Virus record (IMG/VR): IMGVR_UViG_2671180903_000008
Coordinates: 1 to 23,488 of that record
Source of the DNA: a virus
Lineage: Duplodnaviria > Heunggongvirae > Uroviricota > Caudoviricetes
DNA length: 23,488 nucleotides
Direction: 5' to 3' (one strand)
Part shown: piece by piece, positions 21,984-22,161 of the stretch
How the letters are laid out: each line of letters begins with the position of its first letter
How positions within the stretch are numbered: the first letter of the stretch is position 1
Notes under the pieces: generated by a model
What the model was told of the DNA's origin: nothing
What the model saw: only the letters and a program-made list of their open reading frames with translations
The model's database searches: none
Program-made: the position numbers and the translations under genes

Positions 21984-22063
21984 TGGGCGCACACAATACA
22001 GCAAAAAAAATGAGATGTTAAGTATTGACATGTGCGCACACATGATTTTGATCTGTGCGCACA
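21984..22063. promoter_or_regulatory. Divergent control region with three phased copies of the palindrome TGTGCGCACA (one 9/10) and a TTGACA -35-like hexamer
   Basis: Copies at ~21984-21993 (tgggcgcaca), 22031-22040 and 22054-22063 (both perfect); TTGACA at 22025-22030 abuts the second copy; lies between the RHH gene start (21956) and the first small ORF (22162). Confidence 0.5.
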
Positions 22064-22161
22064 GTTTGAGTTTTGTCACTCAAATTAAGCAACGCCCCGC
22101 AGTGCTCGCAACACATGCAGGGCGTCTAACCACCAACGATAGCGAAAGTATCGAGGTAGCT

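What the first reader, a model, noticed from the sequence alone, without database searches (positions are those of the whole stretch)
21984..22161. Divergent promoter with three phased TGTGCGCACA operators
The perfect 10-bp palindrome TGTGCGCACA occurs twice, 23 bp apart, with a 9/10 copy 47 bp upstream. A TTGACA hexamer directly abuts the middle copy, so binding there would block a rightward promoter that drives the small-gene operon. This looks like a genetic switch controlling island early genes.
Basis: seen in the sequence. Interest (0 to 1): 0.55.

Follow-up and report, generated by a model that had tools for sequence, protein, structure and literature searches.

The report
Repressor operators of a phage-satellite switch
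The three TGTGCGCACA repeats are almost certainly the binding sites of a small ribbon-helix-helix repressor encoded next to them. They sit on back-to-back promoters that control the early (replication) genes of a capsid-forming phage satellite, a class of elements for which no repressor has been described.

Summary
In detail: TGGGCGCACA (21984-93) and TGTGCGCACA (22031-40, 22054-63), with TTGACA (22025-30) abutting the middle copy. The region lies between a leftward 65-aa DUF3950/YlcI-YnfO gene with a predicted ribbon-helix-helix (RHH) fold and a rightward icd-like/replication operon. The element is a capsid-forming PICI satellite (int-alpA...) inserted at roxA.

In Rahnella, Klebsiella and Erwinia relatives the three sites are identical and at identical spacing, although the flanks have diverged. 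In about 30 other modules, including the prototype PICI EcCICFT073, the architecture is kept. A -35 abuts site 1, a TAnnnT -10 follows 18 nt later, site 2 lies 23 bp on, and a third site sits at the start of the leftward promoter. The inner bases of the sites change together within a locus.

The site type follows the RHH gene. It does not follow AlpA, Icd-like or the downstream ORF, each of which is 98-100% identical in elements with other site types. Best reading: an exchangeable repressor/operator cassette that represses the rightward promoter PR and autoregulates the leftward promoter PL. Binding and promoter activity are inferred, not shown.

In this copy the PR -10 carries a private A>G change at position -11, probably a promoter-down mutation. 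A conserved structured leader follows the operators. This is a new member of a known kind, of moderate to high interest for satellite biology.

The parts
21984..21993 (.). OL: TGGGCGCACA, a 9/10 copy of the operator. It lies immediately downstream of the leftward -10, so it covers the PL start site.
   Evidence: It is a perfect TGTGCGCACA at the same offset in L012, L013, L015 and L035. All E. coli copies checked have the 9/10 form.
21993..21998 (-). PL -10 hexamer (TATTGT on the minus strand), promoter of the RHH gene
   Evidence: Consensus scan, (TTAACA-17-TATTGT, 9/12). A TATnnT element is seen by eye at the equivalent place in other variants.
22016..22021 (-). PL -35 hexamer (TTAACA on the minus strand), 3 bp from the PR -35, so the two promoters are back to back
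22025..22030 (+). PR -35 hexamer TTGACA, abutting OR1
   Evidence: TTGAC[AG] or a close variant abuts the first site in about 30 modules.
22031..22040 (.). OR1: TGTGCGCACA, in the PR spacer (about -30 to -21)
22049..22054 (+). PR -10 hexamer, TGATCT here and TAATCT in relatives. G at 22050 replaces the -11 A.
   Evidence: Alignment-anchored position 18 nt after the -35. It reads TAnnnT in 25 distinct modules, CATACT in 2, and TAnnnT at 17 nt in 3. Four of 4 E. coli relatives read TAATCT. None of 68 complete genomes matches the 60-mer exactly.
22054..22063 (.). OR2: TGTGCGCACA, overlapping the last base of the -10 and the start site (about -7 to +3)
22063..22086 (+). 5'-terminal hairpin of the rightward transcript (GUUUGAGU...ACUCAAAU). 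The sequence varies but a hairpin is present in other variants.
   Evidence: MFE structure. Analogous inverted repeats seen by eye in L002, L003, L004 and L007-9.
22092..22125 (+). Leader hairpin 1 (7+3 bp), followed by single-stranded CUAACCACCAAC
   Evidence: RNAalifold on 29 leaders: 11 of 14 pairs have compensatory changes. Fold z-score -2.98. No Rfam family. The block 22087-22165 is conserved upstream of icd-like genes in many of the 1613 E. coli genomes hit.
22137..22153 (+). Leader hairpin 2 (CGAUA...UAUCG). Its 3' arm runs into the Shine-Dalgarno GAGG (22153-22156) of the icd-like gene.
21759..21956 (-). 65-aa DUF3950 (YlcI/YnfO family) gene, the predicted ribbon-helix-helix repressor and proposed operator-binding protein
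21516..21701 (-). 61-aa second gene of the leftward operon, function unknown, not a conserved partner of the RHH
   Evidence: It is 100% identical in L006, which carries a different regulator, and is not detected next to RHH in L007-L037.
21420..21439 (-). Terminator-like hairpin plus T-run ending the leftward operon
22162..22365 (+). Icd-like gene, first gene of the rightward small-gene/replication operon
   Evidence: RefSeq name; phrog_6196. In L001 it is followed by DUF4222, an AAA ATPase/helicase, ssb, perC and the capsid and packaging genes.
20953..21141 (+). alpA (PF05930), the known activator of PICI induction. It converges on the RHH operon.
   Evidence: Papers PMC6092414 and 10.1101/2022.09.08.507074.
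21790..22087 (.). Exchangeable cassette: most of the RHH gene, OL, PL, PR, OR1, OR2 and the 5' hairpin, flanked by blocks conserved between types
   Evidence: hits H28-H30 align only to the two ends of the query and not to the interior. Sequences.

Best explanation
Proposed function. The three TGTGCGCACA-type sites are operators for the 65-aa ribbon-helix-helix protein (DUF3950/YlcI-YnfO family) encoded immediately to the left. Together they form the regulatory cassette of a capsid-forming phage-inducible chromosomal island (cf-PICI).

Mechanism, inferred from geometry and comparison:
- Dimers bound at OR1 (between -35 and -10) and OR2 (-10 edge to +3) occlude the rightward promoter PR. This keeps the icd-like/replication operon silent while the island is quiescent.
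- A dimer at OL, on the start site of the back-to-back leftward promoter PL, limits the repressor's own synthesis.
- Gene and operators travel together as a swappable specificity cassette, comparable to an immunity region. Many alternative protein/site pairs occupy the same slot in related satellites.
- The transcript that escapes PR begins with a conserved three-hairpin leader that probably adds a post-initiation control step. Its function is not resolved.

Relation to AlpA (speculative). Induction, known experimentally to need AlpA, must either relieve or bypass this repression. The simplest bypass is alpA-promoter transcription reading rightward through the convergent repressor operon into the early operon.
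For: Shown by sequence:
- Site positions relative to the -35 and -10.
- These are the only copies in the island.

Shown by comparison:
1. Phylogenetic footprint. OL, the -35, OR1 and OR2 are invariant islands in diverged flanks in E. coli, Rahnella (2 species), Klebsiella and Erwinia.
2. The same architecture is found in about 30 modules from Enterobacterales and a Pasteurella PICI. The inner bases differ between loci but are shared by the copies within a locus. Within-locus identity is 9.7/11 against 6.8/11 between loci, and 0 of 10000 permutations reach the observed value.
3. Natural swaps. AlpA is 100% identical in window and L005, Icd-like 98% identical in window and L003, and orf61 100% identical in window and L006, yet each of those loci has different repeats. 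Conversely, loci with TGTGCGCACA have AlpA at 35% identity or undetected and Icd at 44% or less. Only the RHH gene tracks the site type.
5. Cassette boundaries lie inside the 3' end of the RHH gene and just before leader hairpin 1.
6. The prototype PICI EcCICFT073 has the same module with TGGGCCACAC sites. The cf-PICI prototype type (L005) has an unannotated Arc-like RHH with GGTAATTACC twice in the same slot.
Against: - No experiment: DNA binding, transcription start sites and repression are all inferred.
- Protein/site co-variation is confounded by physical linkage, although concerted change of 2-3 copies is hard to explain otherwise.
- 23 bp between OR1 and OR2 is far for the dimer-dimer contacts typical of Arc or MetJ, so cooperativity is unexplained.
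- Published work finds that AlpA overexpression alone induces EcCICFT073 (PMC6092414). The repressor therefore cannot be the only gate.
- In this copy the PR -10 lacks the -11 A, so PR may be weak whether or not repressor is bound.
Confidence: 0.78

Rival explanations
1. The palindromes are binding sites for AlpA, the island's known activator, which would switch PR on rather than off.
For: AlpA is a DNA-binding regulator required for PICI induction (PMC6092414; 10.1101/2022.09.08.507074). PR has a good -35 but a poor -10, as activator-dependent promoters often do.
Against: AlpA is 100% identical in window and L005 and 98% in L006, where the TGTGCGCACA sites are replaced by unrelated repeats. 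Loci in Rahnella, Klebsiella and Erwinia keep the exact sites with AlpA at 35% identity or undetected. The site positions (spacer and -7 to +3) are repressor positions.
Confidence: 0.03
2. The RHH protein is the antitoxin of a type II toxin-antitoxin pair with the downstream 61-aa ORF. The sites would serve only for autoregulation of that pair, and their overlap with PR would be incidental.
Against: The 61-aa ORF matches no toxin family. It is 100% identical beside a different regulator in L006 and is not detected beside RHH homologues in L007-L037. Two of the three sites sit on PR, not PL, and the -35 abutment is conserved in about 30 modules.
Confidence: 0.05
3. The RHH protein binds the sites but acts as a centromere-binding or replication-control protein (ParG/omega/ParB-pCXC100 type), not as a repressor of early genes.
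Against: No ParA-type ATPase was identified in the module. There are only three sites, placed precisely on promoter elements. According to PMC10111431, PICI origins lie downstream of pri.
Confidence: 0.03
4. The sites are chance palindromes, host-factor sites, or the stem of a terminator-like hairpin (CATGTGCGCACACATG plus a T-rich tail) with no dedicated island protein.
For: The whole-window mismatch test is not significant. The scan flags 22029-22044 as terminator-like.
Against: Only 5 of 1000 shuffles give any such palindrome pair. The sites are exactly conserved across genera. They vary in concert with the adjacent gene, which a host factor cannot explain. The T-rich tail is not conserved in relatives.
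Confidence: 0.02

Closest known systems
Phage P22 immI region (Mnt and Arc ribbon-helix-helix repressors at the divergent Pant/Pmnt promoters)
   Same: A small RHH repressor gene is transcribed divergently from the operon it controls. The promoters are back to back or overlapping. Short symmetric operators are placed between -35 and -10 and at the start site. Autoregulation is expected.
   Different: No detectable sequence similarity to Mnt or Arc for the window protein. Three separate 10-bp sites lie 23 and 47 bp apart, instead of one 17-21-bp operator bound by a tetramer. No antirepressor (ant) gene was found downstream. The host element is a satellite, not a phage. This comparison rests on textbook knowledge and was not tested here.
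Stl/Rpr master repressors of Gram-positive PICIs (SaPIs)
   Same: The gene sits in the same functional slot: divergent from the excision/replication operon of a phage-inducible island, and it would keep the island quiescent (PMC6092414).
   Different: Stl proteins are larger helix-turn-helix proteins co-oriented with int. Here the protein is a 65-aa RHH convergent with int-alpA. Helper-phage antirepression is demonstrated for Stl and unknown here. Gram-negative PICIs additionally need the activator AlpA.
Lambdoid immunity regions (cI-OR-cro cassettes)
   Same: A regulator gene plus its multiple operators are exchanged as one block, flanked by conserved sequence. This gives many specificity types at one locus. 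The sites overlap divergent promoters.
   Different: The fold differs (RHH, not HTH). No second, opposing DNA-binding regulator was identified, since Icd-like does not co-vary with the sites. There is no LexA-like cleavage domain.
P1 immI (c4 RNA-icd-ant) and P4 CI RNA immunity, reported in some Gram-negative PICIs (PMC10111431)
   Same: An icd-like gene is the first gene of the controlled operon. It is preceded by a conserved structured leader in the zone between alpA and the replication genes.
   Different: No match to Rfam C4 or isrK here. Control at this locus is protein/operator based, and the leader is an undescribed structure.
YlcI (DLP12), YnfO (Qin) and the lambda right-end ORF, same family (DUF3950, phrog_949)
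   Same: 43% identity over 58 residues, with the same IRFP...NFSAWV motifs.
   Different: Those copies lie next to cos/nu1 of lambdoid phages. I saw no comparable repeat/promoter arrangement upstream (inspected by eye only). No function has been reported for them.

Membership tests
Ribbon-helix-helix (MetJ/Arc/CopG) DNA-binding proteins | N-terminal beta-strand followed by two helices (strand-helix-helix core of about 45 residues) | tested here: met
Ribbon-helix-helix (MetJ/Arc/CopG) DNA-binding proteins | Significant sequence match to a curated RHH family | tested here: inconclusive
   Only DUF3950 passes its threshold. The RHH region of HicB_lk_antitox gives E=0.22, and PSK_trans_fac gives E about 0.02-0.03 for relatives. 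A PDB profile search found nothing.
Ribbon-helix-helix (MetJ/Arc/CopG) DNA-binding proteins | Binds short symmetric or repeated operator sites as a dimer or higher oligomer | not testable with these tools
   Three 10-bp palindromic sites exist and co-vary with the gene. Binding itself needs EMSA or footprinting.
Capsid-forming PICI (EcCIEDL933 type) | int, alpA and a primase/helicase, plus own capsid, protease, portal, connectors, HNH, TerS and TerL in about 15 kb | tested here: met
   The window holds int, alpA and the regulatory module and is cut at 23488. The full-length element in L001 (97.5% identical over 95% of the 4.2-kb query) carries the whole set. It uses the same roxA insertion site as the EDL933-type element.
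Gram-positive PICI master repressor (Stl/Rpr) | HTH repressor co-oriented with int, divergent from xis/rep, and derepressed by a helper-phage protein | tested here: not met
   The divergent topology relative to the replication operon is met. However, the fold is RHH and the gene is on the strand opposite int. Derepression by a helper protein is not testable here.
P1 c4 / P4 CI / isrK RNA immunity | Covariance-model match (Rfam C4 or isrK) upstream of icd | tested here: not met
   No hit at gathering thresholds in the window. No C4 or isrK hit even at E<=10 in 21900-22450.
Type II toxin-antitoxin module with RHH antitoxin | A conserved toxin gene co-transcribed with the antitoxin | tested here: not met
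   The downstream 61-aa ORF has no Pfam or PHROG family and is not a conserved partner.
Sigma-70 promoter (PR) | -35 TTGACA, 16-18 nt spacer, and a -10 with A at -11 and T at -7 | tested here: inconclusive
   The -35 is perfect. The aligned -10 is TGATCT in the window (no -11 A), against TAATCT in relatives. Every other correctly anchored module checked has A at -11 and T at -7. Promoter activity was not measured.

The most novel reading that the evidence does not exclude
The small RHH genes in this slot are the long-sought master repressors of Gram-negative PICIs and cf-PICIs. These include the DUF3950 types here and in EcCICFT073, and an unannotated Arc-like type in the EcCIEDL933 lineage. 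They would define exchangeable 'immunity' types that make satellite lineages hetero-immune. Helper-phage induction would work by defeating or bypassing them, for example by AlpA-driven read-through across the convergent repressor operon, or by a phage antirepressor or heterodimerising phage homologue. The conserved leader would add a second checkpoint.
Probability: 0.4. Interest if true: 0.75.

Novelty: new member of a known kind. Interest (0 to 1): 0.58.

Why it matters
[quoted passage not shown] Later work I could search names only AlpA, Bro-type proteins and RNA immunity (PMC10111431).
- This locus, and the same slot in both experimental prototypes, contains a compact repressor/operator cassette that appears to have been overlooked. 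One reason may be that a spurious long antisense ORF is often annotated in its place.
- The reading assigns a concrete, testable function to DUF3950/YlcI-YnfO, for which I found no reported function.
- It offers a natural panel of at least 15 protein/operator specificity pairs, useful for studying RHH recognition or as orthogonal repressors.
- It predicts hetero-immunity among satellites.

Tried and rejected
- Rfam at gathering thresholds over the window, and at E<=10 over 21900-22450: no C4, isrK or other credible family. The best hit was an 18-bit match to the R1162 antisense RNA against a 55-bit threshold.
- Foldseek against PDB: nothing significant. PDB sequence-profile search: nothing.
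- Full-text search for TGTGCGCACA: only unrelated eukaryotic primers.
- Searches for YlcI, YnfO and DUF3950 function: only gene lists.
- The 'transcriptional repressor' label on Pasteurella element Pmp7 and on PHROG 6196 belongs to the Icd-like/antisense reading frame, not to the RHH gene. It is not independent evidence.
- Icd-like as the site-specific binder (a Cro analogue): rejected, because a 98%-identical Icd-like occurs with a different operator type.
- The terminator-like call at 22029-22044 and the GATC at 22050-22053: not conserved in relatives, so treated as incidental.
- Lambda's family member next to cos: no comparable repeats seen by eye. Not pursued.
- My first regex anchors mis-placed a few loci (L021, L025, L026 and the window itself). 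Those rows were disregarded.

Full report
**1. Observation**

The sequence reads TGGGCGCACA at 21984-21993 and TGTGCGCACA at 22031-22040 and 22054-22063, with TTGACA at 22025-22030 touching the middle copy. No other copy with at most one mismatch exists in the window or in the complete sister element L001.

The tool's whole-window shuffle test is not significant, because at least 3 matches occur in 14% of shuffles. That test ignores clustering. An identical 10-bp perfect palindrome occurring twice within 100 bp is found once in the window and in 5 of 1000 dinucleotide-preserving shuffles.

**2. Context**

- Window 1-13 kb carries phage-sized ORFs, including one of 1080 aa. I did not annotate this part.
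- 13.4-19.1 kb corresponds to potB, potA, pepT and roxA, by ORF positions that match the annotation of L001.
- From 19338 the order is: a tyrosine integrase; alpA (PF05930); a leftward two-gene operon of a 65-aa DUF3950 gene (21759-21956) and a 61-aa ORF (21516-21701); the 205-bp intergenic region in question; then rightward an Icd-like gene (22162) and small genes.
- The full-length relative L001 (97.5% identical over 95% of the 4.2-kb query) continues with DUF4222, an AAA ATPase/helicase, ssb, perC, capsid, protease, portal, connectors, HNH, terS and terL.

This is a capsid-forming PICI of the EcCIEDL933 kind (10.1101/2022.09.08.507074). The long + strand ORF 21199-22365 runs antisense through the leftward operon and fuses with the icd-like frame, so it is spurious.

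**3. Promoter geometry**

- A leftward promoter is predicted with -35 TTAACA (22021-22016) and -10 TATTGT (21998-21993). The left site begins at the last base of that -10 and so covers the start point.
- The rightward -35 (22025-22030) lies 3 bp from the leftward -35, so the two promoters are back to back.
- OR1 fills the first 10 nt of the PR spacer. The aligned -10 is 22049-22054. OR2 starts at its last base.

**4. Conservation of the exact sites**

The protein has 115 cluster representatives at 49-98% identity across Enterobacterales. A genome scan returned 31 loci.

In Rahnella bonaserana, R. inusitata, Klebsiella sp. and Erwinia tracheiphila all three sites are perfect TGTGCGCACA copies at the same 47- and 23-bp spacing. 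The flanking bases differ. Two Pectobacterium loci keep TGTGCGCACAC plus TGTACGCACAC or TGTATGCACAC.

**5. Conservation of the architecture with changing specificity**

In the remaining loci the pattern is the same:
- a -35 (TTGAC[AG] or a close variant) abuts an 11-bp site of the form TG(T/G)nnnnnCAC;
- a TAnnnT hexamer lies 18 nt (17 nt in three cases) after the -35;
- a second copy follows 22-25 bp, mostly 23 bp, after the first;
- a third, often degenerate, copy lies beside the leftward -10.

This holds also in E. coli variants L002, L003 and L004, the prototype PICI EcCICFT073 (L045), a Pasteurella PICI (L038) and an induced 16.5-kb 'phage' (L039).

The inner bases differ between loci but agree among the copies of one locus. 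There are 22 distinct OR1/OR2 pairs in 32 modules. Within-locus identity is 9.7/11 against 6.8/11 between loci, and none of 10000 permutations reaches the observed value.

Two 101-aa variants use non-palindromic half-sites arranged as two inverted pairs.

**6. Which protein binds**

Natural recombinants separate the candidates:
- AlpA is 100% identical in window and L005. L005 has GGTAATTACC twice and an unannotated Arc-like RHH instead.
- Icd-like is 98% identical in window and L003, which has TGTAAG-type sites.
- orf61 is 100% identical in window and L006, which has yet another repeat set.
- Loci sharing TGTGCGCACA have AlpA at 35% identity or undetected, and Icd-like at 44% or less.

Only the adjacent small gene follows the site type. 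Between types, similarity stops inside the 3' end of that gene and resumes just before leader hairpin 1. About 300 bp (21790-22087) therefore behaves as an exchangeable cassette.

**7. Fold**

Foldseek and sequence searches were uninformative. The invariant IRFP motif aligns, by eye, with the beta-strand of Arc. The residues before it vary between specificity types.

**8. Mechanism**

Shown: the site positions, their conservation, the co-variation with the RHH gene, and the predicted fold.

Inferred:
- RHH dimers at OR1 and OR2 exclude RNA polymerase from PR.
- Occupancy of OL autoregulates PL.

Unexplained: how sites 23 bp apart cooperate.

Published data show that AlpA is required for induction. 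Its overexpression alone induces EcCICFT073, and a reporter in 'ORF3' downstream of alpA depends on alpA (PMC6092414). I therefore suggest, speculatively, that alpA-promoter transcription reads through the convergent repressor operon into the early operon. This would both bypass PR and interfere with repressor synthesis.

**9. The rest of the interval**

Positions 22063-22153 encode a leader with three hairpins (-31.6 kcal/mol, z-score -2.98).

Hairpins 1 and 2 are supported by compensatory changes in 11 of 14 pairs across 29 leaders. The block 22087-22165 is conserved upstream of icd-like genes in many of the 1613 E. coli genomes hit. It matches no Rfam family, including C4 and isrK, which have been reported for some Gram-negative PICIs (PMC10111431). 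Its role is open. Candidates are translational control of icd-like, or termination/antitermination.

**10. A peculiarity of this copy**

The PR -10 reads TGATCT. L001, L040, L041 and L042 read TAATCT. None of 68 complete E. coli genomes matches the 60-mer 22016-22075 exactly. Every other correctly anchored module has A at -11 and T at -7.

The G at 22050 is therefore a private -11 A>G change. From general promoter knowledge it is expected to weaken PR strongly. It could also be a sequencing error.

**11. Novelty**

RHH repressors at divergent promoters are a well-known kind; P22 Mnt/Arc is the classic example. In the searchable literature I found no function for DUF3950/YlcI-YnfO and no description of a repressor in Gram-negative PICIs. 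The founding paper calls its existence unclear (PMC6092414).

I rate this a new member of a known kind. It has above-average interest because the module is present in both experimental prototypes and is directly testable.

Noticed in passing
window 22050 (within 22049-22054): Private A>G change at position -11 of the PR -10 hexamer (TGATCT against TAATCT in four E. coli relatives). No exact match of the surrounding 60-mer in 68 complete E. coli genomes. It also creates a GATC site. Probably a promoter-down mutation or a sequencing error.
   Followed up: yes
window 22063-22153: Conserved three-hairpin leader upstream of the icd-like gene. Compensatory changes occur in 11 of 14 pairs, with a single-stranded CUAACCACCAAC between hairpins 1 and 2. 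The block 22087-22165 is conserved upstream of icd-like genes in many of the 1613 E. coli genomes hit, and there is no Rfam family. Function unknown.
   Followed up: partly
L005 3843-4016 (minus strand) and 4017-4146: The EDL933-type cf-PICI lineage carries, in the same slot, an unannotated 57-aa Arc-like RHH ORF with the perfect palindrome GGTAATTACC twice in its upstream region. RefSeq annotates a + strand pseudogene there instead.
   Followed up: partly
L045 (E. coli CFT073, NC_004431.1 1380473-1380851): The prototype Gram-negative PICI EcCICFT073 has a 59-aa YlcI/YnfO gene divergent from icd-like. It has TGGGCCACACC twice, 23 bp apart, abutting TTGACG, plus a degenerate left copy. This is the same module type as L002.
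   Followed up: yes
window 21199-22365 (+): A 388-aa ORF runs antisense through the repressor operon and fuses with the icd-like frame. It is almost certainly spurious. Equivalents are annotated as 'hypothetical protein', 'Icd-like' pseudogene or 'transcriptional repressor' in public records (L005, L006, L038, L039), which hides the small minus-strand genes.
   Followed up: partly
window 21723-21749 (minus strand): A G+C-rich hairpin (GCGCCGTGGTGTGAGG...CGGCGC) lies between the RHH gene and the 61-aa ORF. It sits in a block (cctcacaccacggcgctgatag) that is conserved across cassette types in E. coli. It could be an attenuator, a processing site or a recombination boundary.
   Followed up: no
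window 19313-19336: Tandem 12-bp repeat GGTGTAGTTAAT x2 immediately upstream of the integrase start, in the roxA-int intergenic region. It could be an integrase arm-type site or part of attL or the int promoter.
   Followed up: no
L004 1643-2136 and 2510-2886: One E. coli island carries two regulatory cassettes in tandem: a 101-aa type with TGTGATTC half-sites and a 59-aa type with TGGAATCCA sites. Each has its own leader hairpin. This suggests cassette gain by recombination.
   Followed up: partly
L043 200-394 (phage O276, equivalent to the right end of lambda, minus strand): Lambda-type phages encode a 64-aa member of the same family (43% identity, motif NIRFP...NFSAWV) about 200-360 bp from the right cohesive end. 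K-12 ylcI and ynfO are its prophage copies. No operator-like repeats were seen upstream by eye. A possible interplay with satellite repressors is untested.
   Followed up: partly
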